Assembly (NCBI GenBank): GCA_028716385.1
Contig: JAQUPX010000001.1
Span: 282,775 to 346,774, forward strand
DNA: 64,000 nt
Origin: a bacterium
Lineage (GTDB): Bacteria; Hydrothermota; UBA3073; JACQXS01; JAQTXJ01
Direction: 5' to 3'
The stretch's first letter is position 1, and each line of letters opens with the position of its first letter. The notes under the pieces were generated by a model. It made no database searches, had not been told where the DNA came from, and saw only the letters and a program-made list of their open reading frames with translations. Below, in pieces: positions 10,138-36,048 of the stretch. The position numbers and the translations under genes were made by a program.

Positions 10138-10149
10138 TAAAAAATGAAC

Positions 10150-10214: not shown

Positions 10215-10226
10215 CGCGTAAAGGAC

Positions 10227-10613: not shown

Positions 10614-10617
10614 TAAA

Positions 10618-11004
10618 ATGGAAAAAGGGAAAAAAGAGTTTTTTATAGGGGAGAACAGATTATACCTCGGGGAAGATAAAATACTTTATGCGGATTTTTC
10701 AGGGGAACTTACCGTGGATATAATAAATTCGTTATACGATTTTTTTAATCTCAATAAAACCAAAATGATGAACGAAGGAAAAGTAAAGATACTTATACAC
10801 CTTAAGAATCCAAAGAAATCTTCTCCTGAAGCCAGGAAATTAACATATACGTTGAGTAAAGATAAAAATATTGGCAAAGTCGCCCTCTTGGGAATTAACC
10901 CGGTTACAAAAGTAATCGCCTCTTTCTTTATGGGAAATTCAAGAAAAAAAGATGTAAAATTTTTCAATACAAAAGAATCGGCAATCGTATGGTTAAAGGA
11001 ATAA
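10618..11004 (+). CDS. small STAS/SpoIIAA-like protein, tandem paralog 3 of 4
   Basis: 128 aa; same conserved motif set. Confidence 0.5.
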   Translation: MEKGKKEFFIGENRLYLGEDKILYADFSGELTVDIINSLYDFFNLNKTKMMNEGKVKILIHLKNPKKSSPEARKLTYTLSKDKNIGKVALLGINPVTKVIASFFMGNSRKKDVKFFNTKESAIVWLKE

Positions 11005-11017
11005 TGCATACAGAGAT

Positions 11018-11410
11018 ATGAAAATGAAAAAACAAGAAAAAGAAATATGGGCAGGGCAAAATAGATTATGTTTCGGAGAAGACAAAATACTTTACGCAAC
11101 TCTTGTCGGGGACCTTTCTGCGGAAATAGTGAATACGTTATATGTATTTTTCGAACAAAATAAAAATGAAAATATGGTTGACGGGAAAGTAAGATTTTTT
11201 GTAGACCTTACTAATTCAGGGAAACCTTCTATGGAAGCAAGAAAATTGACTTATGCGCTGAGTGAAAGTAAAGACATCGGGAAATTTGCCATAATCGGAA
11301 TGAATCCGGTTGCAAGGGTAATAGCGGCTTTTTTTATGGGAAATTCAAGAAAGAAAGGTATGAAATTTTTCAACACAAGGGAGGAAGCGCTTGAATGGCT
11401 AAAGAAATAA
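11018..11410 (+). CDS. small STAS/SpoIIAA-like protein, tandem paralog 4 of 4
   Basis: 130 aa; same conserved motif set; 3' end overlaps the kinase start. Confidence 0.5.
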   Translation: MKMKKQEKEIWAGQNRLCFGEDKILYATLVGDLSAEIVNTLYVFFEQNKNENMVDGKVRFFVDLTNSGKPSMEARKLTYALSESKDIGKFAIIGMNPVARVIAAFFMGNSRKKGMKFFNTREEALEWLKK

Positions 11411-15906: not shown

Positions 15907-16530
15907 TCAATCTTTATTTTGAGGGGTCTTTTTTTTCAAATTATGGAAATTAAATCTAATGCTTCCGTAACGCATAGAGTAACTTTCTTCTTCCAGATGA
16001 ATTGGAATCACATCAATTTCTCCTAACAACTCCAGCCAATAAGTAAGGGAGAAACTGGCTCCACAAGCTATAAGCGGATAGCTATACGAGAAAAAAGATT
16101 CGGAATTTCCGGGGGGAACTACGTTTGTCATAATATTATATCTACAAGCAATATATGGGGTTGCGAAATCAATTCTTTTACTAAGATATGCCGTAGCTTC
16201 AAGATTAGCGGCGCCTAAGAAGTTGAATCCAAGCCCGCCTCCGATAGAGAAAGTAACGGGGTCTTTAATTAACCTGGCTTTGAGGCATCCGATCATTCCA
16301 AAGTTAGACACGCGTAGTTCGGAATCAAGATTATCTGCAACGCCTAGTTTAAGGTATAAATTAGAATTATAAAGATACGTAGGGTCATAAGGAACGTTTA
16401 CTAAAGTGCTAATTCCCGCTTCTATTTTATGCGGCGGCAAGGTTTCGCCCGTATCAACTATGGAAGTGGTACAGCCGGACAATAATATTACGGACAAGGG
16501 TAATATTTTCAACAGTATTCGTTTTCGCAT
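15907..16530 (-). CDS. putative lipoprotein / outer-membrane hypothetical protein
   Basis: 207 aa; N-terminal MRKRILLKILPLSVILLSGCTT (signal plus lipobox-like Cys). Confidence 0.5.
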   Translation of the reverse strand: MRKRILLKILPLSVILLSGCTTSIVDTGETLPPHKIEAGISTLVNVPYDPTYLYNSNLYLKLGVADNLDSELRVSNFGMIGCLKARLIKDPVTFSIGGGLGFNFLGAANLEATAYLSKRIDFATPYIACRYNIMTNVVPPGNSESFFSYSYPLIACGASFSLTYWLELLGEIDVIPIHLEEESYSMRYGSIRFNFHNLKKKTPQNKD

Positions 16531-16559
16531 TTTTCAGTATCTTTTTCCTATATAAAATG

Positions 16560-17100
16560 ATTAGTATGTTTTGTCAAGATTTAAGAGTTTTTGGTAGCCG
16601 CAAGCTTTAGCTTGCGCAACTATTTCAAAATGTTAACATATTGACTTAGTAGTAACAGATTTAAGAGTTTTTGGTAGCCGCAAGCTTTAGCTTGCGCAAC
16701 TCTGCCTTTCCCTCTGCTTCCGCGTCCCGTGCATCTTGTCTCTTACAGTCCCTGTTGAAATTCTCTGTTTTTTCGTGTCCTTTTTTCGTAGTAAGTTTTT
16801 CTGTTTCTGTTCTTTTTATCTCTTACAAGTCTTAACAAGTAACAGATTTAAGAGTTTTTGGTAGCCGCAAGCTTTTTACCCTGAGCGTAGTCGAAGGATA
16901 GCTTGCGCAACTATTTCAAAATGTTAACATATTGACTTAGTAGTAACAGATTTAAGGGTTTTTGGTAGCCGCAAGCTTTAGCTTGCGCAACTCTGCCTTT
17001 CCCTTTGCTCTCTCCCCATCTTCGCGTCCCGTGCATCTTGTCTCTTACAGTCCCTGTTGAAATTCTCTGTTTTTTCGTGTTTAGCTGGCGTTTTCTGTTA
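16560..17100. repeat. tandemly duplicated ~290-bp intergenic unit with four copies of a ~45-bp hairpin element
   Basis: (a)GATTTAAGAGTTTTTGGTAGCCGCAAGCTTtAGCTTGCGCAACT at about 16585, 16660, 16855, 16945; flanking TTGACT-containing and CTCTTACAGTCCCTGTTGAAATTCT segments also repeated; the 16855 copy carries a ~22-nt insertion (TTACCCTGAGCGTAGTCGAAGG) in its loop. Confidence 0.6.
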
Positions 17101-17108
17101 CTAACTTT

Positions 17109-18596
17109 TTACTTCACAACTACTATTTTCGATGTGCAGTTTTGTCCGCAAGCGGACAGTCTTGCGAGGTATACGCCGGAGGTAAACCCTGTCGGCGTCC
17201 ATTCTAATGTATATTCACCGGGAACCTTATTTGTGTTTAAAAGAGTTTTAACCAATTCGCCTGCAGTGTTATATATCCTTAAACATACATCGGAATTTTT
17301 TGGTATGGAGTATCTGAAAAGTAATTTGTGGTTAGAGAGTTGTGCATATAATCTAGGCGTTTCCCGAGAATAAACTTTTTCCTGAACACCGGCTATACAT
17401 CCTCCATCCAGGACTTTCAAAATTCCTGTTCCTCCGATTACCACTTCCAATTGCCCGTCCCCGTCTACGTCTCCGATTGAAGGGTCGCTGTCTCCGGCAG
17501 AACTATTGCCAAATTCCCATAGAAGAGTTCCGTCATTATTGAGTCCGCGTATTATTGTATCGTTAGAGGCAAATACTATTTCGGGTTTATCGTCACTGTC
17601 CAAATCGCCAATCGCAGGGCATGACCATATGTGACTTCCCGTTGCATAACTCCAGAGCACTGAGCCATCTTCACCGTTGAGAGCGTAAAAGTTGAAATCA
17701 TCGGAGCCAAATACTATTTCAGGTTTAGTGTCGTTATCCAAATCTGCAATCGCAGGGGAAGAGCGTACGGAACCTCCTGTCGTCGTGTAGCTCCAAAGTA
17801 AAGAACCGTCTTCTCCGTTGAGAGCGTAGAAATCGAATGAGCCGACAACTATCTCGAGTTTAGTATCGTTATCCAAATCTGCAATCGCCGGGGAAGCGCT
17901 AACTCCTATTGGATAACTCCAGATAAGCGAACCATCTTCACCATTAAGAGCATATAATTTATTGTCGCCAAGAACTACCTCAAGTTTAGTATCGTTATCC
18001 AAATCCGCAATTGCAGGCGAAGACCATATGTAACTTCCCGTTGCATAACTCCAGAGTACTGAGCCGTCTTCACCGTTGAAAGCGTAGAACGTATAATCCA
18101 GGGAGCCAACAGCTATTTCAGGTTTACTATCGTTATCCAAATCCGCAATCGCGGGGGAAGACATTACCCGATTTCCTGTCTTATAACTCCAGAGCAGGGA
18201 GCCGTCTTCAGTATTGAGGGCATAAAGTTGGCTGTCATAGGAGCAGACAACCACCTCGAGTTTAGTGTCCCCGTCTAAATCCCCAAGTGCAGGGCAAGAG
18301 CATATTTTACCCGACGTTGTATAGCTCCATATTACTGAACCGTTTTCTCCATTGAAATTATATATTTTATTGTCTATGTCATTACCGGAAATTATTTCAG
18401 GGATGTTATCATTATTTATGTCTACAATTGCAAATTTAGCGAATCCCTCGTTAGGGGTTTGCCATTTGATTCTCATAGAATCGGAAGTTAAGCATCCTTT
18501 GAGTTCAGGTTGAAAACCAGTATTTTGCAGGTCATGATGGAATTTCAGCCATTCTCCGGGCAAGGTCAAAAGGCAAATAAGAAATATATTCAACAT
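17109..18596 (-). CDS. propeller-repeat (PQQ-like / FG-GAP-like) protein with T9SS C-terminal tail; inverted paralog of 29316-30824
   Basis: 495 aa; repeating IADLDNDTKxEVVxGSxDxxLYALNGEDGSxLWSYxTG units; C-terminal sorting tail; N- and C-terminal regions about 80-90 percent identical at nucleotide level to 29316-30824 on the other strand. Confidence 0.65.
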   Translation of the reverse strand: MLNIFLICLLTLPGEWLKFHHDLQNTGFQPELKGCLTSDSMRIKWQTPNEGFAKFAIVDINNDNIPEIISGNDIDNKIYNFNGENGSVIWSYTTSGKICSCPALGDLDGDTKLEVVVCSYDSQLYALNTEDGSLLWSYKTGNRVMSSPAIADLDNDSKPEIAVGSLDYTFYAFNGEDGSVLWSYATGSYIWSSPAIADLDNDTKLEVVLGDNKLYALNGEDGSLIWSYPIGVSASPAIADLDNDTKLEIVVGSFDFYALNGEDGSLLWSYTTTGGSVRSSPAIADLDNDTKPEIVFGSDDFNFYALNGEDGSVLWSYATGSHIWSCPAIGDLDSDDKPEIVFASNDTIIRGLNNDGTLLWEFGNSSAGDSDPSIGDVDGDGQLEVVIGGTGILKVLDGGCIAGVQEKVYSRETPRLYAQLSNHKLLFRYSIPKNSDVCLRIYNTAGELVKTLLNTNKVPGEYTLEWTPTGFTSGVYLARLSACGQNCTSKIVVVK

Positions 18597-22314: not shown

Positions 22315-24177
22315 TTAGGTCTTCTCACTCAGTTGATTAAGCATTTTTTCCTGTGAAATTTTTACGGCCGCCATTTTTTCCCTTAATGCTGAATGTAGAT
22401 GGCTCCATGTTTCAAAATCACACTCTTCTCTAAGTTCACATTCATTACATCTAAAACATCTTGGGAGTTTTAGCCCGCTAAAAAAGTTGTATTCAATATT
22501 TTTAATAATTTTTTCTACTAATTGTTGCGAATAGAAAATCTCAAGTTTTTCTTTTGCCATTTTAGTATTATAATTCTTAAGCTTTTTTAAAACCAAATAA
22601 TCTCTTATCGCTGAAAAATAAGTAATTTCTTCCTCGTTGTTTTTTATATTTCCGGACGATAGTATATTAATAAATTTTTGCAATTCATATATCGCTTTTT
22701 TATATGAACCGGTAACTAAATGCAAAAACGAAAGTAGTAAAACAGGATTTATTCTGCTCCATTGAGAATCCCATTTACGCAAAGGGAGCCATGTAAAAGG
22801 GAGGATATTATTTATTTTATAGGGAGTCTTATATACGCTGTTGTTAACCAGTTCTTTGATTTCTTTGAATTCATCAATTTTTCTTTTATCTAAATCTATA
22901 AATAAATTATTTTTTTCTATTTTTTCTTTATGTAATTCTAACTCCTTCCATGAAGCTCTTCTGGAGTTAGTCCCCGGTACAATAACTTGATAACTTGGAA
23001 ATCCCAAAAAAGATACATCTCTTATAAATATAGGTCCTTTTGTTGCTCTATGTAATATATTACACATACGTTGATAGTGTAGTTTATTGTTAAATTTGTT
23101 ATTTGTGTTTGCCGACAAAGTACTATTATAAGATGGTTTTCCAAAGAAAAAACTGTTTGGATAAGCACCGTCATTCGTTTTTAGCAAGTTAAAAAAGTTG
23201 TTAGACCATCCGCCATTATTAATTTTTTGTTCGAATAATAAATCTTTTAAGTTTACTTTCGTTCCGCTTTTGTAGTCCAAAATATGTCTACCTTGAAATG
23301 TTTCTGTAATGGCGCGGGAAATAGCCTCATCTATATTAGGATGCGACCCAAAATTTACATGGTAGCTGCCTTTCCTTTTATCGTGCGCTATGACAGCAAC
23401 AACAGGCAACGCCATATTTAGAGAACAATCTTTAATTGAAATATGGAAATTACTATTTTTTTCTATTTCCTCAATCATAATCTTTAAGTGTGGGGAACGA
23501 GATATACAACTTTTGTTTAATTCCGGGGGAGTTAATTGCTTGTGGTAAATAACATCCATACAGTGCCTTTCACTTACTTCGCTCATCCCTTGCACCAATG
23601 CTTCGTAAATATTATTCCCGGCGCACATCCCCGTAGAACCATAATGATACCTTATCATCTCCAATGGCAAAAAAACAATTTTTCCGCTAATCACATCCGC
23701 AAATGGAATGCATAGCAATTTTCCTTCGTATGAAAAAAAATCCAGCCATTTTTCGGCATCCCCTTTCTGTCTGTCACACGGAGCAAAATTTCTTAACAAA
23801 TTCTTGTCGACAGACTTAACAAATTGGCGCGGTGTTAAAAATATTTCATCCGGGGAATAAATAAAATCAGAAATCTTATGCAGTGTTTTATAGTTTAATA
23901 TAAAACTATTATGATTTGCGGTGTTGAATTGATTTTGTATTCTTTCCATTAGTTCCGCATAAGCGCTGGCAAGCGCCGCTTCTTTTGACATCCCCTTCCC
24001 GTTTGAACCAATAAAACTATCATTAAAACTAATGCGTACCGAATATAAAGAATCTCCATTCTTATACCACCTGTCTTCATTAATCAAAACTCCTATTTTG
24101 TAAAAAATGTTTCTTATACGAGTTATAGTTTCTATGGGTTTTACATCTTTATATAAAACTGTCTGAACCTTTTCCAT
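22315..24177 (-). CDS. ycaO: YcaO-domain protein, full-length E. coli YcaO-type
   Basis: 620 aa; SVRISFNDSFIGSNGKGMSKEAALASAYAELMERIQNQF matches the YcaO ATP-binding core (GKG...AxxSAxxExxER); further blocks YHYGSTGMCAGNNIYEALVQGMSEVSERH and FGSHPNIDEAISRAITETFQGR line up with E. coli YcaO along its length. Confidence 0.85.
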   Translation of the reverse strand: MEKVQTVLYKDVKPIETITRIRNIFYKIGVLINEDRWYKNGDSLYSVRISFNDSFIGSNGKGMSKEAALASAYAELMERIQNQFNTANHNSFILNYKTLHKISDFIYSPDEIFLTPRQFVKSVDKNLLRNFAPCDRQKGDAEKWLDFFSYEGKLLCIPFADVISGKIVFLPLEMIRYHYGSTGMCAGNNIYEALVQGMSEVSERHCMDVIYHKQLTPPELNKSCISRSPHLKIMIEEIEKNSNFHISIKDCSLNMALPVVAVIAHDKRKGSYHVNFGSHPNIDEAISRAITETFQGRHILDYKSGTKVNLKDLLFEQKINNGGWSNNFFNLLKTNDGAYPNSFFFGKPSYNSTLSANTNNKFNNKLHYQRMCNILHRATKGPIFIRDVSFLGFPSYQVIVPGTNSRRASWKELELHKEKIEKNNLFIDLDKRKIDEFKEIKELVNNSVYKTPYKINNILPFTWLPLRKWDSQWSRINPVLLLSFLHLVTGSYKKAIYELQKFINILSSGNIKNNEEEITYFSAIRDYLVLKKLKNYNTKMAKEKLEIFYSQQLVEKIIKNIEYNFFSGLKLPRCFRCNECELREECDFETWSHLHSALREKMAAVKISQEKMLNQLSEKT

Positions 24178-24224
24178 AGTTTTAACTAATTCCCCTCATC
24201 TCCCTATCCGCCTTATTCTTTTCT

Positions 24225-24651
24225 TTTAATCTCTCCAATCTATTACCAACCCTTGATTTATCTAGGGATGGTTATCCAGCTCTGCTGGAAAATCTCCAAT
24301 CCAAAATCCAAAATCTATTACTTGCCTGCCCCGTACATTTATTGCACAGGGGCGCTCACTTGGTAGCCGCAAGCTTTAGCTTGCGCCTGTCCACCTTTTG
24401 TTTTGGCGGAAAGCGGGGAAGAATCTCGTTTTTCCCCTTCGCCCTTTGCTCTTCTCGCTCCTCCGTATCTCCCCAATTCGCATTCCAAAATCTTTTTTTT
24501 CAGTATCTTTTAATTCCCCAATTCCTTCTTTTAATCCGTTCAATCCCCAATCCCTGCCTACCGGTCAGGCAGGCAAAATCTAAAATCTATTACCAGCCCT
24601 TGAGTTATCTAGGGATGGTTATCCAGCTCCGCTGTGGCTGGAAAATCCGCC
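24225..24651. repeat. repeat-rich intergenic region containing remnants of T9SS-linker coding sequence
   Basis: Two copies of CTATTACCxxCCCTTGAxTTATCTAGGGATGGTTATCCAGCTCxGCTG (about 24235-24290 and 24585-24640); AATCCAAAATCCAAAATC and CCCTGCCTACCGGTCAGGCAGGCAAAATC blocks match coding sequence at 33585-33625; GGTAGCCGCAAGCTTTAGCTTGCGC hairpin at about 24360. Confidence 0.45.
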
Positions 24652-26370
24652 CTATCCCTCGTTTTCTATTGTTTGAAATAAATGCTGGTATAAGATATTC
24701 GTTTGTATCAATTCTCTGTGCGTCCCCGATGTAACAAAATTCCCCTTATCAAGAACTATCGTCCTGTCCGCTAAAAGCATCGTTTCTTTTGAATGACTGA
24801 TAACTATCGTTATTCTGTCGTCTTTGCCGTCTATTAAAACATTATGTATCGCTTTAATGTTGTTCGCATCAAGTCCTGCCGTGGCCTCATCCAACAGCAA
24901 TACGTCCGGTTTTTTTAGAAAAGCCCGCGCTATCGCCAGCCTCTGTTTTTGCCCGCCACTCAGATTTCCACCGCTTTCATTAAGTTTATGATTCAACCCG
25001 TCTTCTAATTGATTAATGAATTCCATTGCCTGGGCCCTTTTTAGAACAGTATCAATTTCTTCATCGGTTGAATTTAACTTGCCCATAGAAATGTTCTCTT
25101 TTATCGTTGCTAAAAATAAAAAAGGCGCCTGTTGCACTATTGCTATTTTATTCCGATACGAATCCAGGGATATTGAATTGATGTTAATGCCGTTTGCGCT
25201 TATCTCACCTTTCTCCGGCATATATACCCGCTGCAATAACTTAAATATCGTCGTTTTCCCCGCCCCGCTTTCCCCTACTAATGCTATGATTTCACCTTTC
25301 TTTGCGCTGAAAGAAACATTCTTAAGACCAAAATCATCCTTTTCGGAATATGAAAAACAAACTTCTTTAACGTTGAGCGTTTCTATGCTTTCAATATCAA
25401 TGCCTTCTTTCTTCTCCTGCTCTATAGAGAATAATTCCTGCACTCTTTTTATACAACTTTTCCCCGTTTGAAGAGATATGTTAAGATTCGTTAACCCGGA
25501 CGTTGAACTGAATACTTGCACCATAAGCATATTAAACGCAAAGAAACTGCCAAAAGTAAGCTCCCCTTTAATTATCAGGTATCCCCCCAGCCATATTAAT
25601 ACGACCTTCCCCAGGGTCGAACTTAGTTGCCCCAGCACAGATGGCTTGCAGGAATATACGAACCGTTCAATTGCAATATTAAACAACTCTGTTAATTTTT
25701 TAGCATACCTGCTTATAATTTCTTTTTCTGCTCCTAAATATTTTATTTCCAGACGCCCGGAAATGATTTCGTTCAAATAAAAAGTATTATTTGCTTTCTT
25801 CTCCAGCATTTTTATCGTTCTCTGGTTCATCCCGCGATTAAATAGCTTTAAAGAAATGGCAAAAATCGGGAGTATACTGAAAAACACTAAAGATAACGTA
25901 AGATTAAACTTCGCAATGATTATCACGCTAACTACAAGCGTAATCGCATCTTTTGTTAAATTTAACATATCGTCTATAAAAAACGTATTAACTCCTTCCA
26001 AATCTCCCTCTATTCGTCCCGTAAGATATCCCGACCCTTTTTGAGATAATTCTTTCCAGTTGGAATTAATAATTCGTCCCAATAATATTGACTTTAAATA
26101 GTTCCCGAAACCATACTTCAGGCAATTTGCCATATAAGTATCAAAAATGCTTATCCCTATAAGGCAAACTTGAGCAGCCAATATCGCAATAGCCCATTTT
26201 GTTAAAAGAAGATAGTCTTTAGAAGGCAAAACAATATCAAGGATATGTTTTGTCAGGAGCGGAATTATAACGACTAAAGCGACTTTCAATATGTTCCCAA
26301 CAACAATAAGTAGTGATGATGAAAAAGCAATCCCAAAAAAATATTTACCTGCTAATTTTCTTACTTTCAT
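24652..26370 (-). CDS. ABC exporter, fused permease-ATPase (no N-terminal C39 peptidase domain)
   Basis: 572 aa; N-terminal half with multiple hydrophobic helices; Walker A GESGAGKTT, signature LSGGQKQRLAIARAF, Walker B VLLLDEATAGLD; start overlaps the rSAM stop by 4 nt. Confidence 0.85.
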   Translation of the reverse strand: MKVRKLAGKYFFGIAFSSSLLIVVGNILKVALVVIIPLLTKHILDIVLPSKDYLLLTKWAIAILAAQVCLIGISIFDTYMANCLKYGFGNYLKSILLGRIINSNWKELSQKGSGYLTGRIEGDLEGVNTFFIDDMLNLTKDAITLVVSVIIIAKFNLTLSLVFFSILPIFAISLKLFNRGMNQRTIKMLEKKANNTFYLNEIISGRLEIKYLGAEKEIISRYAKKLTELFNIAIERFVYSCKPSVLGQLSSTLGKVVLIWLGGYLIIKGELTFGSFFAFNMLMVQVFSSTSGLTNLNISLQTGKSCIKRVQELFSIEQEKKEGIDIESIETLNVKEVCFSYSEKDDFGLKNVSFSAKKGEIIALVGESGAGKTTIFKLLQRVYMPEKGEISANGININSISLDSYRNKIAIVQQAPFLFLATIKENISMGKLNSTDEEIDTVLKRAQAMEFINQLEDGLNHKLNESGGNLSGGQKQRLAIARAFLKKPDVLLLDEATAGLDANNIKAIHNVLIDGKDDRITIVISHSKETMLLADRTIVLDKGNFVTSGTHRELIQTNILYQHLFQTIENEG

Positions 26371-27731
26371 AGTTTGTCCTTATAGATGAGTTTCATTATC
26401 CCACACTGGTATTCATCCGGAGTATATAAATTGCCGTTTGCCAATAAAGCAGCCCCCGGACACATTTTACAATAATTCTTTATACTACATATATTACACG
26501 TTTTCAAATCGTCTACTTTAATATTATGATGCATTCTTATTTCATCACTTCCCCATATCTCATCTATTGATTTGTTTCTAATGTTTTGACTCCCGTACCT
26601 CAATGTTGCACACGGGAAAACGTTCCCCTTAGCATCTATTGCAAAACTATAAGCTCCGGAATAACAATTTGCTGAATTTGGCCCCCTAATATCCTCTTCT
26701 TGTTGCAAACTCTCTCTTCCCACTTTGTTAATTAACCAATCAATCTGTGATAAAGAACAGAAAACATTTTGATTCATATTTCTATACAATCCTTTTCTCA
26801 TTTGGGTAATGTCGTAAGTATATCTTAAACCATAAGATGCGCATAATTTTTCCATTGCGGGAATCTGCCGGTAATTCATCGCCAAAACTGGGGTTTTAAT
26901 ACGGATGCGCATATTAGTTTTAGAAAGTATGGGAAGTAAAGTTTTTATATGCTCTGAGGCAGTTACTCCGCAAATCTCTTTATAAGTTTTTTCATTAGCT
27001 CCCAAAACGCTAATTTCTAACTTGTATACCCCAAGAGATTCCAAATGTTTTATAAGAGCCTTATTCAATAAATACCCATTTGTAAAAACTACTACTGCAA
27101 AATTTCTATCTATTGCCATCTTTATAATATTAAGAAAATCTTTTCTTATAAGAGGTTCTCCCCCTGAAATTGTAACTCTTAAACACTTTTTTTCTTTGAG
27201 CCAATTTAATATCTCTATAATTTCATTTAGTGAAAGGTCTTCGGATGTTTTTGATTTTTTACTTGGTATTTTGTTATAGCAATGTATACATTGGAAATTG
27301 CACATAGATGAAACCTCTATAAATGCCGACATAGGAAGTTTTTCTCCGGCATATAATCTACGTATTTTCTTAGAATCTAATATCTGCTTAGCATTAAATA
27401 GTTTTTCATTTTTGTTTGATTGGGATTTCATTATTTGTTCTTTATCAACAAACAAAATACTTTCGGCATTTAACCAATTTATTATTAATTTTATATTATC
27501 AACAATAAACTTGTGCGATATAATTATTTTCTTTTTATACGCTAAAGAAATTATATTTTTTTCAATCTTATTCTTGCTATTACCTTTTAAAAAAGAGTAT
27601 ACTATTAGTGCCCCAATTCCATTTATAAGGCTATAGCTATCTGTTTTTTTATTAAAAACAATTGCTTGATTTAGATTTTTAAAATATCTACAAATAAAAA
27701 TCTTATTTAATCTCGACATTTTTAGTCCCAT
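26367..27731 (-). CDS. radical SAM enzyme with C-terminal SPASM domain and ~130-aa N-terminal extension (possible peptide-recognition, RRE/PqqD-like)
   Basis: 454 aa; CNFQCIHC (CxxxCxxC) cluster; glycine-rich SAM motif VTISGGEP; C-terminal Cys cluster CNICSIKNYCKMCPG typical of SPASM; N-terminal region before the rSAM core is a small alpha/beta unit. Confidence 0.8.
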   Translation of the reverse strand: MGLKMSRLNKIFICRYFKNLNQAIVFNKKTDSYSLINGIGALIVYSFLKGNSKNKIEKNIISLAYKKKIIISHKFIVDNIKLIINWLNAESILFVDKEQIMKSQSNKNEKLFNAKQILDSKKIRRLYAGEKLPMSAFIEVSSMCNFQCIHCYNKIPSKKSKTSEDLSLNEIIEILNWLKEKKCLRVTISGGEPLIRKDFLNIIKMAIDRNFAVVVFTNGYLLNKALIKHLESLGVYKLEISVLGANEKTYKEICGVTASEHIKTLLPILSKTNMRIRIKTPVLAMNYRQIPAMEKLCASYGLRYTYDITQMRKGLYRNMNQNVFCSLSQIDWLINKVGRESLQQEEDIRGPNSANCYSGAYSFAIDAKGNVFPCATLRYGSQNIRNKSIDEIWGSDEIRMHHNIKVDDLKTCNICSIKNYCKMCPGAALLANGNLYTPDEYQCGIMKLIYKDKL

Positions 27732-27780
27732 CAGTATTTTACTTTTTTAATACATTATAAAATTAATAATCTACTCCTTG

Positions 27781-27803
27781 TGTACACCTGTAAAAGGTGT
27801 ACA
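27781..27803 (-). terminator. perfect 9-bp-stem hairpin between small ORF and rSAM gene (possible attenuator)
   Basis: TGTACACCT-gtaaa-AGGTGTACA, 17 nt downstream of the small-ORF stop and about 50 nt upstream of the rSAM start. Confidence 0.4.
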
Positions 27804-27819
27804 CAAGGATGCAATACAA

Positions 27820-27963
27820 TTACATAAGGACCATTGTACAATTATCCGTCATGTCAGTTTCATCTTCATTCAATCTACTAGGCCCTATACGTCTTGCTAA
27901 TTTCCCTGGTGTTGTCCCAGCCTCAATAGTTACGGTACTTTCAATTTTTGTTAGTTCAAACAT
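27820..27963 (-). CDS. unannotated 47-aa ORF, candidate precursor peptide
   Basis: Minus-strand ATG at 27963 with AAGGAGGTGA 8 nt upstream; translation MFELTKIESTVTIEAGTTPGKLARRIGPSRLNEDETDMTDNCTMVLM; stop TAA at 27820-27822; sits directly 5' of the rSAM-ABC operon on the same strand; below the 60-aa track cutoff. Confidence 0.35.
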   Translation of the reverse strand: MFELTKIESTVTIEAGTTPGKLARRIGPSRLNEDETDMTDNCTMVLM

Positions 27964-27990
27964 TTTTTCATCACCTCCTTTTTCACATAG

Positions 27991-28073
27991 CAATCACTTT
28001 AAATGTATGTCAAGAGAATTGCAAGAAAAAATCCTAGTAAAATATTAGGATTTCTAGTAAAATATTAGTATCC
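27991..28073 (-). promoter_or_regulatory. promoter/operator module with tandem direct repeats (CTAGTAAAATATTAG x2), -35-like TTGACA and a TTTAAAGT box
   Basis: Minus-strand reading: TTTTACTAGAAATCCTAATATTTTACTAGGATTTTTTCTTGCAATTCTCTTGACATACATTTAAAGTGATTGC, just upstream of the RBS of the small ORF; about 80 percent identical to 61715-61794. Confidence 0.45.
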
Positions 28074-28272: not shown

Positions 28273-29046
28273 CTAAAACGCTTTTTGTCCCAGAATAGTC
28301 ATATTGAAAGAATTAGTATTGAATTTGTTTTCTTCAAGATTAGGATTGACCGAATCGCCATAGACTGCCTTAATGCTGATGTTGACTTCGCGAAACATTT
28401 TTTCTATGTCCCCATAAGAATAAACTTTAATTTTTTGTTTGGGGTATTCGTATGAATTATTCCCTTCAATAACTGTCGTGTTGACGGTAAAAATACTTTG
28501 CAAAACATCAAAAGCGTTCTCTACTATAAAAGTTTTTTCCCCGATTTTATACCTGTCTTTTTTTAGCAGCTTCGGAATATATTGCAAGTTAAATAAATCC
28601 AGAAGTAAATGTCCCTGCGGTTTTAACAAACCCGATATGAGATTTAGCGCCTTCATATTTTCTTTGTCCGACAAAAGACCGAAACTGATGTCCATCATAT
28701 AGACAGCATCAAACCTACACTTGAAACAAGGCGAAAGCATATCCCCGCAAACAAAAGAAGCGCTTAACTTCTTTCTCCCTGCCTCTGCCATTCCGGATTT
28801 TAAAAGCACAAAAGAGTAATCCATCCCTACGACGTTTTCGTATTTCCTTTTCGCAAATTCTATAATATGTCTTCCGTCCCCACATCCTAAATCCAACACC
28901 GCCGTTTCTTTACGTATATTCAAAACTTTTTCAAGGAAGTCCGTCTGGGCAACTGTCACGGCAAGGGATTCTCTCCACCCGTTTTCATACCTGAGCGCGT
29001 AAAGCTCCTTCCACCATTCCTTTGAATATCCTTTTTTCATTGTCAT
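28273..29046 (-). CDS. class I SAM-dependent methyltransferase
   Basis: Motif I VLDLGCGDGRH and downstream acidic/hydrophobic motifs; track ORF extends to 29199 but the likely start is MTMKKGYSK at 29046. Confidence 0.7.
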   Translation of the reverse strand: MTMKKGYSKEWWKELYALRYENGWRESLAVTVAQTDFLEKVLNIRKETAVLDLGCGDGRHIIEFAKRKYENVVGMDYSFVLLKSGMAEAGRKKLSASFVCGDMLSPCFKCRFDAVYMMDISFGLLSDKENMKALNLISGLLKPQGHLLLDLFNLQYIPKLLKKDRYKIGEKTFIVENAFDVLQSIFTVNTTVIEGNNSYEYPKQKIKVYSYGDIEKMFREVNISIKAVYGDSVNPNLEENKFNTNSFNMTILGQKAF

Positions 29047-29278
29047 CTTAAAACCCCAACCTAACTCACTTTCATCGGTTGAAGCGGTCCCCCAAAGCAC
29101 TACATTAACATACAAATAACACAATTTAAAGTTGTGTCTACAATTACTTTTTTCGGCACGCAAGATGTCCCATTTAAAATCCTGACTGCCGTCAGGCAAG
29201 TTATCGGACTATGCCCATTCTGCTTTCCTTTTTTAAAAATATTGTAGGGACAGCCTCCCCAAAAAAAATGCTTATTCC

Positions 29279-29315: not shown

Positions 29316-30824
29316 ATGTTAAACATTTTTCTTATCTGTCTTCTCAACCTCCCCGGCGAATGGCTCAAATTCCATCACGACCTCCAAAACACAGGTTTCC
29401 AATCTGAACTCAAAGGATGCTTAACTCCTGACTCCGTCAGAATCAAATGGGAAACTCCTAATTTGGGATTCGCCAAATTCACAATTGTAGATATAAATAA
29501 TGACGGCATTCCTGAAATAATTGCCGGTAATTACTATGACTATTCAATATATAATTTCAAAGGGGAAGACGGTTCGGTAATATGGAGTTACGAAACAGGA
29601 AGCAAAGTGTCCTCTACTCCTGCGATTGCAGATTTGGATAACGATACTAAACTTGAGATACTTGTTGGCTCAAGGGATTATAATTTATACGCTCTCAAGG
29701 GTGAAAATGGGACACTGCTCTGGAATTATACAACAGGAGGTTCTGTGTATTCTTCGCCAACGATTGCGGATTTAAATAACGACAGTAAACTTGAGGTAGT
29801 TGTTGGCTCTGGCGATTTTACACTATATACGCTCAACGGAGAAGATGGTTCTCTACTCTGGAGTTATACAACAGGAGGGAGTATAATATCTTCACCTGCA
29901 ATTGCGGATTTGGATAACAACGCTAAACTTGAGGTAGTTGTTGGGTCCGATGATTCTACGCTGTATGGCCTAAATGGAGAAAATGGCTCACTACTCTGGA
30001 GCTATAAAACAGGAAATTGCATAGAGTCTTCGCCGGCAATTGGGGATTTGGATAACGACACTAAACCTGAAGTAGTTTTTGGCTCTGTGGATTCGACGTT
30101 GTATGCTCTCAATGGCGAAGATGGCTTACTACTCTGGAGTTATACAACAGGAGGTTCCGTATACTCTTCGCCGGCAATTGGGGATTTGAATAACGACAGT
30201 AAACTTGAGGTAGTTGTTGGATCATTTGACCATAAACTGTATGCTCTCAATGGAGAAGATGGCTCATTGCTCTGGAGTTATGGAACAGAGAATTGGATAT
30301 ACTCCTCGCCAGCAATTGGGGATTTGGATGGTGATGGGAAACTTGAGATAGTATTTGCCTCTTGTGATACAATAACAACAGTATACGGACTCAACGACGA
30401 TGGCACTCTTCTATGGACATTTAACATTTATTCTGCTGGAGACAGCGACCCTTCAATCGGAGATGTAGACGGTGACGGACAACTAGAAGTAGTAATCGGG
30501 GGAACGGGTTATTTAAAAGTTCTGGATGGAGGATGCATAGCCGGCGTTCAGGAAAAAATTGATTCTAAAGAAACCCCTAAACTCCATACACAAATCTTCG
30601 GGCGCAAATTACTTTTCAGATACTCCATACCAAAGAAATCCGACGTCTGTTTACGAATATATAACACTGCAGGCGAATTAGTTAAGACTCTTTTAAACAC
30701 AAATAAAGCCCCCGGTGAATATACATTAGAATGGACGCCGACAGGTTTTGCCTCAGGCATCTACCTTGCAAGACTATCCGCTTGCGGAGCAAACTGCACG
30801 TCAAAAATAGTAGTCGTGAAGTAG
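29316..30824 (+). CDS. propeller-repeat (PQQ-like / FG-GAP-like) protein with T9SS C-terminal tail; inverted paralog of 17109-18596
   Basis: 502 aa; same repeat architecture and near-identical first ~60 and last ~100 residues as 17109-18596. Confidence 0.65.
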   Translation: MLNIFLICLLNLPGEWLKFHHDLQNTGFQSELKGCLTPDSVRIKWETPNLGFAKFTIVDINNDGIPEIIAGNYYDYSIYNFKGEDGSVIWSYETGSKVSSTPAIADLDNDTKLEILVGSRDYNLYALKGENGTLLWNYTTGGSVYSSPTIADLNNDSKLEVVVGSGDFTLYTLNGEDGSLLWSYTTGGSIISSPAIADLDNNAKLEVVVGSDDSTLYGLNGENGSLLWSYKTGNCIESSPAIGDLDNDTKPEVVFGSVDSTLYALNGEDGLLLWSYTTGGSVYSSPAIGDLNNDSKLEVVVGSFDHKLYALNGEDGSLLWSYGTENWIYSSPAIGDLDGDGKLEIVFASCDTITTVYGLNDDGTLLWTFNIYSAGDSDPSIGDVDGDGQLEVVIGGTGYLKVLDGGCIAGVQEKIDSKETPKLHTQIFGRKLLFRYSIPKKSDVCLRIYNTAGELVKTLLNTNKAPGEYTLEWTPTGFASGIYLARLSACGANCTSKIVVVK

Positions 30825-31697: not shown

Positions 31698-33131
31698 TCA
31701 CTTTATTAGTACCATTTTCTTTGTCTCTTTAAAATTATTAGTTGTCACCCTCACAAAATATACCCCACTCTTTTTTATATTCGGCGTAAACACATAATCC
31801 CCTTTGCTTAATGCTCCATTGTAAATAACCTCTTTCGTTCTCCCGCACAAATCGTAAATTTTCAATTCCGCATTTATACTCTTTGGCACGCTCAAATAAA
31901 TCTTATCTTTTATTATTTCCATTTTTGATATTTGATTTTTGATTTTTGATTTCTCCTCTATCCCTACCTTAACATATTTTAATGCAAGCGAATAGTTCCA
32001 TCCTGCCGAAATTGCAGTAACGCCTGTCAGGAGGCTTGTCTGGACAGGCTGATTACGCTGGGTGCCGGTAGAATCTCCAAGCTGTCCATAACCGTTCTGC
32101 CCCCAAGCCCATACGGTACTGTCGGATTTTATTAATGCGAGTGAATGTTCCCCTCCTGCTGAGATTGCAACGGCATTGGTCAGATTAAGTGTCTGCAAGG
32201 GCACGGAATGAGGATTATAATCACTACTTCCGATACCAAGCTCCCCATAGCCGTTATATCCCCAAGCCCATACGGTTCCGTCAGGCTTTAATGCGAGTGA
32301 ATGCGCGCCCCCTGCTGAGATTGCAATAACACCGGTCAGGAGTTTTACCTTGACAGGCTGATTATTCTGGGTGGTGGTAGAATCTCCAAGCTGTCCGTAG
32401 TAGTTATATCCCCAAGCCCAGACTGTACTGTCAGACTTTAACGCAAGTGAATGGTGACCTCCCGCTGAAATTGCAACGACATTCGTCAAAAGATTTGTCT
32501 GGACAGGTACGAAATGAGTATTGTAATCGCTACTTCCGATACCAAGCTGTCCGGAGCCGTTATATCCCCATGCCCAGACGGTTCCGTCAGATTTTAACGC
32601 AAGTGAATGCGAACCTCCCGCAGAAATTGCAATAACATTCGTAAGAAGTTTTGTTTGCACAGGATAACGGCGATAGGCAGTAACAGTAGAATCTCCAAGC
32701 ACTCCGGAACCATTACTTCCCCAAGCCCAGACAATGCTGTCAGATTTTAAAGCAAGTGAATGCGAACCTCCCGCAGAAATTGCAACAACATTAGTCAAGA
32801 ACTTTGTCCGGACAGGATTATATCTATAATAAAAAGTAGTAGAATCTCCAAGCTGTCCGTAGGCATTATATCCCCACGCCCAGACAGTGCTGTCATAGTT
32901 TATGGCAAGCGAAAAGTCATATCCTCCTCCGCCTTTTCCTGCACAGATTGCAAGAACATTAGTCAAGATTTTTGTCCGGACGGGTTGATTCCGTTGCCAA
33001 GTATTAGTAGAATCTCCAAGCTGTCCCCAGTCATTACTTCCCCATGCCCATACATTTTCATCGGCTTTTGCGACACCTGCGCTTCCTGCTATCAACAGGC
33101 TTACGACCCACATAAAACTTTGTTTCTTCAT
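31698..33131 (-). CDS. RCC1-repeat propeller protein with T9SS C-terminal tail
   Basis: 477 aa; seven-plus repeats of VWAWGxNxYGQLGDST...GGxHSLALKSDxTV; C-terminal sorting tail. Confidence 0.7.
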   Translation of the reverse strand: MKKQSFMWVVSLLIAGSAGVAKADENVWAWGSNDWGQLGDSTNTWQRNQPVRTKILTNVLAICAGKGGGGYDFSLAINYDSTVWAWGYNAYGQLGDSTTFYYRYNPVRTKFLTNVVAISAGGSHSLALKSDSIVWAWGSNGSGVLGDSTVTAYRRYPVQTKLLTNVIAISAGGSHSLALKSDGTVWAWGYNGSGQLGIGSSDYNTHFVPVQTNLLTNVVAISAGGHHSLALKSDSTVWAWGYNYYGQLGDSTTTQNNQPVKVKLLTGVIAISAGGAHSLALKPDGTVWAWGYNGYGELGIGSSDYNPHSVPLQTLNLTNAVAISAGGEHSLALIKSDSTVWAWGQNGYGQLGDSTGTQRNQPVQTSLLTGVTAISAGWNYSLALKYVKVGIEEKSKIKNQISKMEIIKDKIYLSVPKSINAELKIYDLCGRTKEVIYNGALSKGDYVFTPNIKKSGVYFVRVTTNNFKETKKMVLIK

Positions 33132-34407: not shown

Positions 34408-34414
34408 AACTTTA

Positions 34415-36040: not shown

Positions 36041-36048
36041 TTTATTTC

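What the first reader, a model, noticed from the sequence alone, without database searches (positions are those of the whole stretch)
22315..24177. Full-length E. coli-type YcaO without E1-like or TfuA partner, next to a SPASM radical-SAM enzyme
The protein aligns along its whole 620-aa length with E. coli YcaO (ATP-binding block GSNGKGMSKEAALASAYAELMERI and later conserved blocks), not with the short azoline-forming D-protein type. No E1-like/ocin-ThiF or TfuA gene is visible nearby. E. coli YcaO is known to assist a radical-SAM methylthiotransferase, so a YcaO next to an rSAM enzyme of a different class (SPASM) is an unusual pairing that may mean a different chemistry or substrate.
Basis: partly seen in the sequence, partly recalled or inferred. 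Interest (0 to 1): 0.6.

Follow-up and report, generated by a model that had tools for sequence, protein, structure and literature searches.

The report
Rare YcaO–radical-SAM peptide-modifying gene cassette
The YcaO gene is real and has the E. coli-type fold, but it is not the housekeeping ribosome-modifying enzyme: it is the last gene of a very rare four-gene cassette (47-residue precursor peptide, radical-SAM enzyme, exporter, YcaO) that most likely makes a small modified, secreted peptide whose chemistry is unknown.

Summary
Window 22315-24177(-) encodes a 620-aa YcaO with all ATP/Mg residues. Its predicted fold matches E. coli YcaO over the full length (TM 0.74-0.76), and no E1/ThiF or TfuA partner was found among the window ORFs scanned.

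It is not a housekeeping orthologue:
- It scores 207 bits against the 700-bit NCBIfam cutoff.
- Its pI is 9.15, against 4.38 for E. coli YcaO.
- It falls in an 8-member clade whose members mostly sit in RiPP-type loci.
- More distant homologues (about 30% identity) sit alone among housekeeping genes.

The gene ends a cassette: 47-aa precursor, RRE-like rSAM/SPASM enzyme, ABC exporter, YcaO. The cassette recurs with every part conserved in an unrelated metagenome contig (rSAM 42%, ABC 46%, YcaO 37% identity). Three precursors share MF.xT.IE.T.T…NE.E…T.NC. An exhaustive search of 1.84 billion proteins found only one other full-length copy of the rSAM enzyme.

The YcaO is not directly adjacent to the rSAM gene. 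The upstream methyltransferase is not part of the cassette.

A conserved 4-Cys C-terminal tail, absent from E. coli YcaO, is a new detail. The chemistry (thioamide, azoline or amidine) is unresolved.

The parts
27964..28067 (-). Upstream regulatory module of the cassette: two exact TAATATTTTACTAG 14-mers 20 nt apart (28034-28047, 28054-28067), then TTGCAA and a TAcATTTAAAGT box, then the Shine-Dalgarno sequence AAAGGAGGTGA
   Evidence: Homology with the independent contig L028 starts here, at about window 28066. The module is nearly identical upstream of the 2117-aa gene at 61700-61792. The Shine-Dalgarno sequence is read directly from the DNA.
27820..27963 (-). Precursor peptide gene, 47 aa: MFELTKIESTVTIEAGTTPGKLARRIGPSRLNEDETDMTDNCTMVLM (acidic, pI 4.56). 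The N-terminal MF.xT.IE.T.T motif is the inferred leader, and the C-terminal NE.E…T.NC motif is the inferred core.
   Evidence: Two homologues are known: P0284/L028 (85% identical) and the L003 peptide (36-38%), with invariant M1 F2 T5 I7 E8 T10 T12 N32 E33 E35 T39 N41 C42. Against L028 there are 8 synonymous and 7 nonsynonymous codon changes, and the nonsynonymous ones cluster at residues 17-26.
27775..27809 (-). Strong RNA hairpin immediately after the precursor stop codon (15-bp stem)
   Evidence: Fold energy is -27.9 kcal/mol, z=-7.1. Hairpins sit at the same position in L028 (z=-7.1) and, with an unrelated sequence, in L003 (z=-4.7).
26367..27731 (-). Radical-SAM/SPASM peptide maturase (454 aa) with an N-terminal domain of about 130 aa whose predicted topology resembles a PqqD-like RRE
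   Evidence: Pfam Radical_SAM, Fer4_12 and SPASM. No NCBIfam family reaches its cutoff. It is 42% identical over its full length to the L003 enzyme. The predicted N-terminal topology is β-β-β-α-α-α, at low confidence. Best structural matches are PqqE, SkfB, SuiB and CteB, the last two aligning over 470-495 columns.
24652..26370 (-). ABC exporter (572 aa; fused permease and ATPase, no C39 peptidase domain). Its start overlaps the rSAM stop by 4 nt.
   Evidence: Pfam ABC_membrane plus ABC_tran. It is 46% identical to the L003 exporter.
24178..24651 (.). 474-bp non-coding gap between the ABC and YcaO genes, made of small dispersed repeats, including a 56-nt direct repeat at 24232-24287 and 24579-24634. 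It is probably a secondary insertion.
   Evidence: In L003 the ABC and YcaO genes overlap by 20 nt. A Logan contig of the same organism breaks inside the repeat.
22315..24177 (-). YcaO, 620 aa: ATP-binding YcaO domain plus an E. coli-type helical (TPR-like) C-terminal domain. It is basic (pI 9.15).
22420..22458 (-). Conserved 4-Cys motif in the YcaO tail: C574-x2-C577-x2-C580-x5-C586 (CFRCNECELREEC). It is a candidate metal or Fe-S site and is absent from E. coli YcaO.
   Evidence: All four Cys are present in 103 of 120 homologues, none in 11 and some in 6. E. coli has -PSA at these columns. The region has high model confidence, pLDDT 87-94.

Best explanation
The YcaO is the last enzyme of a compact, horizontally mobile RiPP (ribosomally synthesised, post-translationally modified peptide) cassette: regulatory module, 47-aa precursor, hairpin, rSAM/SPASM maturase, ABC exporter, YcaO.

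Shown:
- The four genes are co-inherited.
- The precursor is under purifying selection at both ends.
- The YcaO has an intact ATP/Mg site.

Inferred:
1. The N-terminal MF.xT.IE.T.T motif of the acidic precursor acts as the leader. It is bound by the RRE-like N-terminal domain of the rSAM enzyme and, electrostatically or through its helical C-terminal domain, by the basic YcaO.
2. The rSAM/SPASM enzyme cross-links the invariant Cys42 of the T-x-N-C core to a nearby residue, giving a sacti- or ranthipeptide-like thioether.
3. The YcaO uses ATP to O-phosphorylate a backbone amide in the same core and replaces the oxygen. I favour a thioamide (about 35-40% of the chemistry options) for two reasons. 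The closest characterised relative by fold, E. coli YcaO, is a TfuA-independent thioamide-forming enzyme. The C-terminal PxPxP motif that I recall, from my own knowledge of the literature, as typical of azoline-forming YcaOs is absent.
4. The conserved 4-Cys tail, together with the family-specific Cys185 and Cys251 near the active site, may bind a metal or Fe-S cluster involved in sulfur delivery.
5. The ABC exporter secretes the product. Leader removal is unassigned, because the cassette encodes no protease.
For: - Cassette conservation. L003 has a 40-aa peptide, a 448-aa rSAM/SPASM enzyme, a 584-aa ABC exporter and a 613-aa YcaO in the same order. Identities are 42%, 46% and 37%.
- Third precursor. 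It lies on L028 and is followed by the same rSAM N-terminus.
- Precursor selection. There are 8 synonymous and 7 nonsynonymous changes, with both end motifs preserved.
- Hairpin. One follows every precursor gene.
- Not housekeeping. NF040716 scores 207 bits against a 700-bit cutoff. The pI is 9.15 against 4.38. PMC13063428 reports that uL16-modifying YcaOs are highly acidic and suggests, from genomic context, that non-acidic group members are RiPP-linked.
- Clade. P0001-P0008 are monophyletic in a neighbour-joining tree.
- Clade contexts. Two members have this cassette. Two have B12-rSAM neighbours. One has six GG-leader peptides with a C39-ABC exporter and an HlyD-type protein. One has NHLP, LanM and a carbamoyltransferase.
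- Outgroup. Four of four homologues at about 30% identity are orphans among housekeeping or translation genes.
- Active site. It is intact.
- PxPxP. None occurs in the last 40 residues of any of the 120 homologues.
- rSAM enzyme. Its closest structural matches are RiPP maturases, including the RRE-bearing SuiB and CteB.
- Base composition. The cassette GC is 34%, against 40-45% for its neighbours.
Against: - No chemistry has been observed, so the thioamide call is inference from relatedness.
- No sulfur-delivery genes (TfuA, ThiS) are present.
- The sole invariant Cys sits right after Asn41. That is also the ideal set-up for a thiazoline, which would conflict with a Cys thioether.
- The RRE assignment rests on low-confidence structure (pLDDT 36-79 at the N-terminus), and Pfam gives no PqqD hit.
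- In this genome a 474-bp repeat insertion separates the YcaO from the ABC gene, so co-transcription here is not assured.
- Only three precursors, from two deep lineages, define the motif.
- The tree is neighbour-joining without support values and covers only the top 120 hits.
Confidence: 0.72

Rival explanations
1. Same RiPP cassette, but the YcaO is a stand-alone cyclodehydratase. It converts the invariant Asn41-Cys42 pair into a thiazoline. The rSAM enzyme then does something other than a Cys thioether, such as a C-C or C-O cross-link or an epimerisation.
For: Cys42 is invariant, even through a synonymous TGT to TGC change. The residue before it, Asn41, is also invariant. Partner-independent YcaOs exist, for example in bottromycin biosynthesis (established knowledge). 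The YcaO weakly matches the TOMM SagD model.
Against: TIGR03604 scores 67.9 bits against a 219-bit cutoff. The C-terminal PxPxP motif that I recall as typical of azoline-forming YcaOs is absent. No dehydrogenase or E1-like partner is present. The fold is much closer to E. coli YcaO than to LynD, TruD or McbD.
Confidence: 0.2
2. Same cassette, but the YcaO installs a backbone amidine using ammonia (ItfB-like), or it acts as an ATP-dependent peptidase that removes the leader (MusD-like). The peptidase option would make up for the lack of any protease in the cassette.
For: ItfB works beside an rSAM cross-linking enzyme and a transporter in the itf cluster and forms an amidine near the precursor C-terminus. 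YcaO peptidase activity has a solved example, 7U58, which appears among the structural matches. The exporter lacks a C39 domain and no protease gene is present.
Against: MusD is a distant match (TM 0.42).
Confidence: 0.15
3. The YcaO is a housekeeping protein-modifying enzyme (uL16 thioamidation, or the 'S12/RimO accessory' role). It merely lies near an unrelated rSAM/ABC operon, and the 474-bp gap marks the boundary between the two.
For: It shares the full-length E. coli architecture. Its larger family at about 30% identity is made of orphans in housekeeping contexts, one of them beside BipA and ribosomal protein S21. The gap separates the YcaO from the ABC gene.
Against: In L003 the ABC and YcaO genes overlap, and all three proteins have diverged by similar amounts. 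The pI is 9.15. The score is far below the equivalog cutoff. The YcaO shares the cassette's low GC (32.5%), while the next gene has 45%. Every clade member with readable context lies beside rSAM, RiPP or unannotated genes and none among housekeeping genes.
Confidence: 0.05

Closest known systems
E. coli YcaO (P75838; PDB 4Q84-4Q86), the uL16-Met82 thioamide-forming enzyme formerly called 'S12 methylthiotransferase accessory factor'
   Same: It has the same two-part architecture (YcaO ATP-binding domain plus helical TPR-like C-terminal domain) and the same ATP/Mg residues. It has no E1-like or TfuA partner. It is the best structural match (TM 0.74-0.76).
   Different: Identity is only 22-27%. 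The window protein is basic rather than strongly acidic. It has a 4-Cys tail and conserved Cys185 and Cys251 that E. coli lacks. It is embedded in a peptide-rSAM-exporter cassette rather than standing alone. Its presumed substrate is a 47-aa peptide, not a folded ribosomal protein.
itf cluster of Bacteroides thetaiotaomicron (ItfA precursor, ItfB YcaO, ItfD rSAM, ItfE C39-ABC; Clark & Seyedsayamdost 2022, as summarised in PMC11002830 and PMC10352776)
   Same: It is a RiPP locus that combines a SPASM/twitch-type rSAM cross-linking enzyme, a stand-alone YcaO acting near the precursor C-terminus, and an ABC exporter.
   Different: The precursor motif differs (C-terminal Ile-Thr-Phe against T-x-N-C followed by 4-5 residues). 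The itf exporter carries a C39 peptidase and works with GG leaders, and here it does not. Homology between the window's rSAM and YcaO and ItfD and ItfB could not be tested.
Sactipeptide and ranthipeptide maturases with an N-terminal RRE (CteB, SkfB, AlbA type) and NxxcB-type β-thioether formation
   Same: The enzyme has an RRE-like domain, an rSAM core and a full SPASM domain with two auxiliary-cluster Cys motifs. The core is Cys-containing and acidic, and Thr and Asn lie close to the Cys.
   Different: No NCBIfam maturase family reaches its cutoff; the best score is about 105 bits against cutoffs of 265-650. There is a single invariant Cys rather than several. An additional YcaO is present.
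Orphan ~600-aa YcaO family of Clostridia, Negativicutes and Dehalococcoidia (e.g. Wukongibacter, Sporomusa, Tepidibacter), uncharacterised
   Same: It has the same length and architecture, the same 4-Cys tail and the same conserved Cys185 and Cys251. Identity is 27-33%.
   Different: These proteins sit alone among housekeeping genes, often after a Com_YlbF gene or near translation genes. They have no peptide, rSAM or exporter neighbours. They are mildly acidic (pI about 5-6).

Membership tests
uL16-thioamidating / 'S12 accessory' YcaO (NCBIfam NF040716 equivalog, E. coli YcaO group) | Whole-protein score at or above the curated equivalog cutoff (700 bits) | tested here: not met
   The score is 206.9 bits, although the alignment spans residues 8-570 against model positions 4-547 of 571.
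uL16-thioamidating / 'S12 accessory' YcaO (NCBIfam NF040716 equivalog, E. coli YcaO group) | YcaO domain plus a C-terminal helical TPR-like domain of about 150 residues | tested here: met
   The AF2 model matches 4Q84-86 over about 610-625 columns with TM 0.74-0.76. Pfam YcaO_C matches weakly, E=0.0013-0.008.
uL16-thioamidating / 'S12 accessory' YcaO (NCBIfam NF040716 equivalog, E. coli YcaO group) | Strongly acidic protein (pI about 4.4) complementary to basic uL16 (PMC13063428) | tested here: not met
   The pI is 9.15, against 4.38 computed for E. coli YcaO.
uL16-thioamidating / 'S12 accessory' YcaO (NCBIfam NF040716 equivalog, E. coli YcaO group) | No adjacent small ORF or RiPP genes (orphan context) | tested here: not met
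   The cassette contains a precursor, an rSAM enzyme and an exporter, and it is conserved in L003.
YcaO superfamily (Pfam PF02624), catalytically competent | ATP/Mg-binding residues (E. coli S71, E75, E78, N187, E199, E202, R203, R286, E290) | tested here: met
   All are conserved in the query and in 119-120 of 120 homologues. S184 is Cys.
Azoline-forming TOMM cyclodehydratase (SagD type, TIGR03604) | Model cutoff, an E1-like/Ocin-ThiF partner or fusion, and a C-terminal PxPxP motif | tested here: not met
   The score is 67.9 bits against a 219-bit cutoff. No ThiF or E1 domain occurs in the window ORFs scanned. No PxPxP occurs in the last 40 residues. The PxPxP criterion comes from my own knowledge of the literature.
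TfuA-dependent thioamide-forming YcaO (thioamitide / McrA type, TIGR03266) | An adjacent TfuA gene and the model cutoff | tested here: not met
   The score is 57.5 bits against a 365-bit cutoff. No TfuA is present in the window (same scans as above).
RiPP biosynthetic gene cluster (generic) | A short precursor gene with conserved leader and core motifs next to maturases, with conserved synteny across lineages | tested here: met
   Three precursors share the motifs, and the cassette is syntenic in L003 and partly in L028.
RiPP biosynthetic gene cluster (generic) | Modified peptide product demonstrated | not testable with these tools
   This needs expression and mass spectrometry.
itf-type rSAM+YcaO RiPP (Clark & Seyedsayamdost 2022) | [quoted passage not shown] | tested here: not met
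   The precursor ends …TDNCTMVLM. The exporter has only ABC_membrane and ABC_tran domains.
itf-type rSAM+YcaO RiPP (Clark & Seyedsayamdost 2022) | Sequence homology of the YcaO and rSAM enzymes to ItfB and ItfD | not tested
   The ItfB and ItfD sequences could not be retrieved with the available tools.
RRE-bearing rSAM/SPASM peptide maturase (SuiB / CteB architecture) | CxxxCxxC rSAM motif plus a full SPASM Cys pattern | tested here: met
   The Pfam domains are present. C144, C148, C151, C356, C374, C412, C415, C421 and C424 are invariant in A4.
RRE-bearing rSAM/SPASM peptide maturase (SuiB / CteB architecture) | N-terminal PqqD-like RRE (three strands plus three helices) | tested here: inconclusive
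   The predicted order is E10-14, E25-27, E32-34, H38-48, H53-66, H73-88, but at pLDDT 36-79. Full-length Foldseek alignments to SuiB and CteB exist. Pfam gives no PqqD hit.

The most novel reading that the evidence does not exclude
The cassette encodes a new RiPP class. In it, an E. coli-type YcaO performs TfuA-independent backbone thioamidation (or another O-replacement) on a T-x-N-C core that a new SPASM enzyme also cross-links. The conserved C-terminal CxxCxxCx5C tail, with Cys185 and Cys251, is a built-in Fe-S or persulfide sulfur-delivery module. Because over a hundred orphan YcaOs from Clostridia and other lineages share this tail, it would also point to how partner-less YcaOs obtain sulfur. 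The 2026 uL16 study explicitly leaves that question open.
Probability: 0.15. Interest if true: 0.8.

Novelty: new variant of a known kind. Interest (0 to 1): 0.55.

Why it matters
E. coli-type YcaOs were a functional mystery until 2026, when the E. coli enzyme was shown to thioamidate ribosomal protein uL16. This locus shows the same architecture working inside a peptide natural-product cassette with a defined, tiny candidate substrate. That offers a tractable in vitro system: a 47-aa peptide and two enzymes. With it one could ask what chemistry this branch performs, how it recognises substrates without an E1 or RRE partner, and whether the conserved 4-Cys tail supplies sulfur.

The cassette itself is a genome-mining lead. 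It has a previously undescribed precursor family and an rSAM/SPASM subfamily with only two full-length members among 1.84 billion representative proteins. The practical value is moderate. rSAM plus YcaO RiPP clusters already have precedent, and RiPP-linked members of the E. coli YcaO group have been noted in passing.

Tried and rejected
- Methyltransferase 28273-29199 as a cassette member: rejected. Homology with L028 begins only about 100 bp upstream of the precursor, L028 has a T9SS-tail protein upstream instead, and L003 has no methyltransferase.
- Scans of metagenome contigs and genome contigs with the two-sequence rSAM alignment: only distant rSAM enzymes were returned (21-33% identity over partial lengths) and no new cassette.
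- Word-indexed protein search with the rSAM enzyme: it missed even the L003 homologue. The exhaustive search was needed.
- Pfam on the isolated rSAM N-terminal domain, the YcaO tail and the peptide: no RRE/PqqD, Fe-S or precursor family was found.
- Rfam on the whole window: no hit, so the gap is not a known RNA.
- Sigma-70 promoter and terminator consensus scan: counts did not exceed those in shuffled sequence, so it was uninformative.
- Small-ORF search in L001, L004 and L005: no recognisable precursor was found. L004 and L005 are high-GC, so their ORF lists are noise.
- Supplements of PMC13063428: Figure S33, which shows RiPP loci of non-acidic YcaOs, is an image and is not held as text. 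I could not check whether this cassette is among them.
- pI as a clade-wide discriminator: it is only soft. Clade members range from 5.3 to 9.1 and the orphans from about 5 to 9. It is decisive for the window protein only.
Full report
**1. Observation**

The ORF at 22315-24177 on the minus strand is real: 620 codons, from ATG to stop.
- It carries a Pfam YcaO domain (E=4e-52, residues 59-403) and a weak YcaO_C match.
- Its best NCBIfam model is the E. coli type, NF040716. The alignment covers residues 8-570 against model positions 4-547 of 571, but it scores only 206.9 bits against a curated cutoff of 700.
- Against E. coli K-12 YcaO, taken from NC_000913.3, BLASTP gives 27% identity over residues 10-445. 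A family alignment gives 22% over 568 shared columns.
- The ATP/Mg residues seen in the 4Q84 alignment (S71, E75, E78, N187, E199, E202, R203, R286, E290) are all conserved. S184 is Cys.
- An AlphaFold2 model built on 56 homologues is confident (pLDDT 91.1, pTM 0.92). Its best PDB matches are the E. coli YcaO entries 4Q84-4Q86, over about 610-625 aligned columns at TM 0.74-0.76. LynD, TruD, MusD, McbD and methanogen YcaOs reach only TM 0.33-0.44.

The 'full-length E. coli-type' description is therefore correct. I scanned nearly all window ORFs of 150 aa or more with Pfam or NCBIfam and found no ThiF/E1-like, TfuA or RimO-type protein. One correction is needed: the rSAM/SPASM gene is not adjacent to the YcaO. 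An ABC exporter gene and a 474-bp gap lie between them.

**2. Anatomy of the locus**

On the minus strand, from upstream to downstream, the locus has these parts:
- **Regulatory region (about 100 bp).** It holds two exact TAATATTTTACTAG 14-mers 20 nt apart, then TTGCAA, a TAcATTTAAAGT box, and a strong Shine-Dalgarno sequence.
- **Precursor ORF (27820-27963), 47 aa.** The sequence is MFELTKIESTVTIEAGTTPGKLARRIGPSRLNEDETDMTDNCTMVLM, pI 4.56.
- **Hairpin.** A 15-bp-stem hairpin follows the stop codon directly (-27.9 kcal/mol, z=-7.1).
- **rSAM/SPASM enzyme (26367-27731), 454 aa.** It has a CxxxCxxC motif and a complete SPASM cysteine pattern.
- **ABC exporter (24652-26370).** It overlaps the rSAM stop by 4 nt and has no C39 peptidase domain.
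- **Gap (474 bp).**
- **YcaO.**

The next gene downstream encodes a CBM9/DUF5916 protein with 45% GC, against 32.5% for the YcaO, and it is unrelated to the cassette. The cassette as a whole has 34% GC, against 39.6% for the window.

**3. The cassette is conserved elsewhere**

The exact YcaO is on record from an NCBI MAG labelled only 'bacterium', on a 953-kb contig. Only seven other proteins in the 5.8-billion-protein collection are 37-50% identical. After them comes a large set at about 27-33% identity, mostly from Clostridia, Negativicutes and Dehalococcoidia.

The contig of P0006 (L003, a JGI metagenome) carries the same genes in the same order: a 40-aa ORF, a 448-aa rSAM/SPASM enzyme, a 584-aa ABC exporter and a 613-aa YcaO. 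Its ABC and YcaO genes overlap. Identities to the window proteins are 42% for the rSAM enzyme (over the full length, including the N-terminal domain), 46% for the ABC exporter and 37% for the YcaO. The L003 peptide is MFDETVIETTDTTKGDVVWNSLCHFNEEVNHTDNCAATVP. It shares the N-terminal MF.xT.IE.T.T motif and the C-terminal NE.E…TDNC motif.

A profile of the two peptides recovered a third precursor, P0284, on ENA contig L028: MFELTKIESTVTIEAGKTPGTPVRRVGPSRLNEDETDMTANCTMVLV. The same rSAM N-terminus follows it. Between the window and L028 the ORF differs at 15 codons, 8 synonymous and 7 nonsynonymous. The nonsynonymous changes cluster at residues 17-26, and the Cys codon has a silent TGT to TGC change. 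This is the pattern expected of a translated gene with constrained ends. The invariant core is T39-x-N41-C42, and Asp40 is not invariant. A strong hairpin follows the precursor in all three loci, with an unrelated sequence in L003.

Homology between L028 and the window starts only about 100 bp upstream of the precursor, at about window 28066. L028 has a different upstream gene, encoding a T9SS-tail protein. The methyltransferase at 28273-29199 is therefore not part of the cassette.

**4. Rarity**

An exhaustive phmmer search of 1.84 billion representative proteins with the rSAM enzyme found few specific relatives:
- the enzyme itself;
- the L003 enzyme (P0134, 400 bits, 43%);
- three fragments: P0135 (49%), P0136 (64%) and P0137 (36%).

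Everything else scores 175 bits or less, which is generic rSAM/SPASM similarity. Pattern-based scans of metagenome and genome contigs found no further cassette.

**5. Placement among YcaOs**

- In a neighbour-joining tree of the top 120 hits, rooted on E. coli YcaO, the window protein and its seven closest relatives form an exclusive clade. The tree has no support values.
- The clade's contexts are RiPP-like:
  - two loci carry this cassette;
  - two have an adjacent B12-binding rSAM gene (L001, L004);
  - one sits among at least six peptides with the double-glycine leader MARIKIEDLPKDMKISKEEMKKVVGG, plus a C39-ABC exporter and an HlyD-type protein (L002);
  - one lies beside a carbamoyltransferase, an NHLP-type precursor and a LanM;
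  - one is unclear (L005).
- All four outgroup homologues examined are solitary genes among housekeeping genes. P0010 and P0019 follow a Com_YlbF gene. P0016 lies among metabolic genes. P0051 lies between BipA and ribosomal protein S21.

**6. Relation to current knowledge of E. coli YcaO**

A 2026 study shows that E. coli YcaO thioamidates ribosomal protein uL16 at Met82 and that its link to RimO/S12 is weak. It reports that uL16-modifying YcaOs are highly acidic (pI 4.4). It suggests, from genomic context, that the few non-acidic proteins grouping with E. coli YcaO belong to RiPP loci. It leaves the sulfur source of these TfuA-less enzymes unknown (PMC13063428).

The window YcaO has pI 9.15, against 4.38 computed for E. 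coli YcaO, and its candidate substrate is acidic. It therefore fails three defining features of the housekeeping family: the score cutoff, the charge and the orphan context. It shares the fold and the active site.

rSAM plus YcaO RiPP loci have precedent. In the itf cluster, the YcaO ItfB forms an amidine and the rSAM enzyme ItfD forms an Ile-Trp cross-link, with a C39-ABC exporter alongside (PMC11002830). Related Bacteroidales clusters are described in PMC10352776. The window cassette differs from these in its precursor motif and in lacking a peptidase domain on the exporter.

**7. A new detail: family-specific cysteines**

The YcaO tail carries C574-x2-C577-x2-C580-x5-C586, which lies beyond the region that aligns with E. 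coli YcaO.
- Across 120 homologues, all four cysteines are present in 103, all are absent in 11, and the set is partial in 6.
- E. coli YcaO has none of them.
- The region is modelled with pLDDT 87-94.

This near all-or-none pattern is what a metal or Fe-S site would show. Two more cysteines are conserved in this family and absent from E. coli YcaO: C185 at the E. coli S184 nucleotide-site position (97 of 120) and C251 (108 of 120). Their role is unknown. A sulfur-relay function is speculation.

**8. The rSAM enzyme**

No curated maturase family reaches its cutoff; the best score is about 105 bits. The AlphaFold2 model has only moderate confidence (pLDDT 70). Its N-terminal 90 residues are predicted as β-β-β-α-α-α, the PqqD-like RRE topology, but at pLDDT 36-79. 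Foldseek ranks PqqE, SkfB, BlsE, SuiB and CteB at the top. SuiB and CteB, which have the RRE-rSAM-SPASM architecture, align over 470-495 columns. Pfam finds no RRE. I treat the RRE as likely but unproven.

**9. Mechanism**

Shown: this is a co-inherited precursor-rSAM-exporter-YcaO cassette with an intact YcaO active site and a constrained precursor.

Inferred:
- The N-terminal motif is the leader, and the T-x-N-C region is the core.
- The rSAM/SPASM enzyme cross-links Cys42. A thioether is the commonest outcome for SPASM enzymes acting on Cys-containing cores.
- The YcaO ATP-activates a backbone amide in the core.

Among the possible outcomes I rank thioamide first. The closest characterised relative is a partner-less thioamide-forming enzyme. 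The C-terminal PxPxP motif, which I recall from the literature as typical of azoline-forming YcaOs, is absent. The extra cysteines also point that way. Thiazoline at Asn41-Cys42 comes second, and amidine or peptidase activity third. None of this can be settled computationally.

**10. The gap and other caveats**

The 474-bp ABC-YcaO gap contains a 56-nt direct repeat (91% identical, 347 bp apart) and pieces that recur in other intergenic regions of the window. A Logan contig from the same organism breaks inside the repeat. The gap looks like a secondary insertion of small dispersed repeats, and it may affect co-transcription in this genome.

Other limits:
- Only two deep lineages of the cassette are known.
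- The tree is simple.
- pI is a soft criterion across the clade, where it ranges from 5.3 to 9.1.

**11. Verdict**

This is a real and correctly described gene. It is not the housekeeping enzyme. It is a rare, uncharacterised RiPP cassette that recruits an E. coli-type YcaO, which makes it a new variant of a known kind. It is a good experimental lead with moderate surprise value.

Noticed in passing
window 27985-28067 (-) and 61700-61792 (-); also L028 1110-1200: An ~80-bp module is nearly identical upstream of the precursor gene and upstream of a 2117-aa T9SS-secreted β-propeller protein (55289-61642). It consists of two TAATATTTTACTAG 14-mers 20 nt apart, then TTGCAA, then a TA..ATTTAAAGT box. 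The exact 14-mer occurs nowhere else in the window. This suggests a shared operator and promoter, and possibly co-regulation.
   Followed up: partly
window 24178-24651; 16500-17150; 33564-33622; 8197-8224: A family of small dispersed intergenic repeats. The ABC-YcaO gap shares a 27-mer with three sites at 16591, 16671 and 16962, and a 61-nt stretch with 33564-33622. The 16.5-17.1 kb intergenic region is a nest of 38-111-nt direct repeats. No Rfam family matches.
   Followed up: partly
window-wide (e.g. 40-552, 560-1642, 17109-18596, 29316-30824, 31698-33131, 33346-41622, 43370-48568, 55289-63972): About twenty ORFs end in a T9SS C-terminal sorting domain (Por_Secre_tail). Many have FG-GAP, PQQ-like or RCC1 β-propellers and most have no other annotation. 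This points to an FCB-group organism, although NCBI labels the MAG only 'bacterium'.
   Followed up: no
window 9377-12747 (+): A response regulator, four tandem paralogous proteins of about 127 aa with no domain searched, and a PAS histidine kinase. It looks like a partner-switching or two-component regulatory cluster.
   Followed up: no
window 48771-55042 (-): A second ABC exporter (581 aa) lies beside an unannotated 479-aa protein, an AhpC/redoxin-like protein, a DUF5128 six-bladed propeller and a second SAM methyltransferase. It may be another small secondary-metabolite or secretion locus.
   Followed up: no
L002 6741-11737 (contig of P0004, 44% identical YcaO): At least six paralogous peptides of 61-94 aa share the double-glycine leader MARIKIEDLPKDMKISKEEMKKVVGG and have divergent cores. 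They flank a clade YcaO next to a cNMP-binding C39-ABC exporter and an HlyD-type protein. This is a second, different RiPP or bacteriocin context for this YcaO clade.
   Followed up: partly
L009 7647-9830 and L029 5539-7830: In two Clostridia-type genomes the orphan 4-Cys-tail YcaO directly follows a Com_YlbF-family gene. In a Dehalococcoidia MAG (L030) it lies between BipA and ribosomal protein S21. These may be hints to the unknown protein substrate of that large orphan family.
   Followed up: no
window 41872-43299 (-): A Schlafen/AlbA_2 plus HATPase_c_4 plus wHTH protein is embedded among the T9SS cargo genes. The left edge of L003 also carries an AlbA_2 gene.
   Followed up: no
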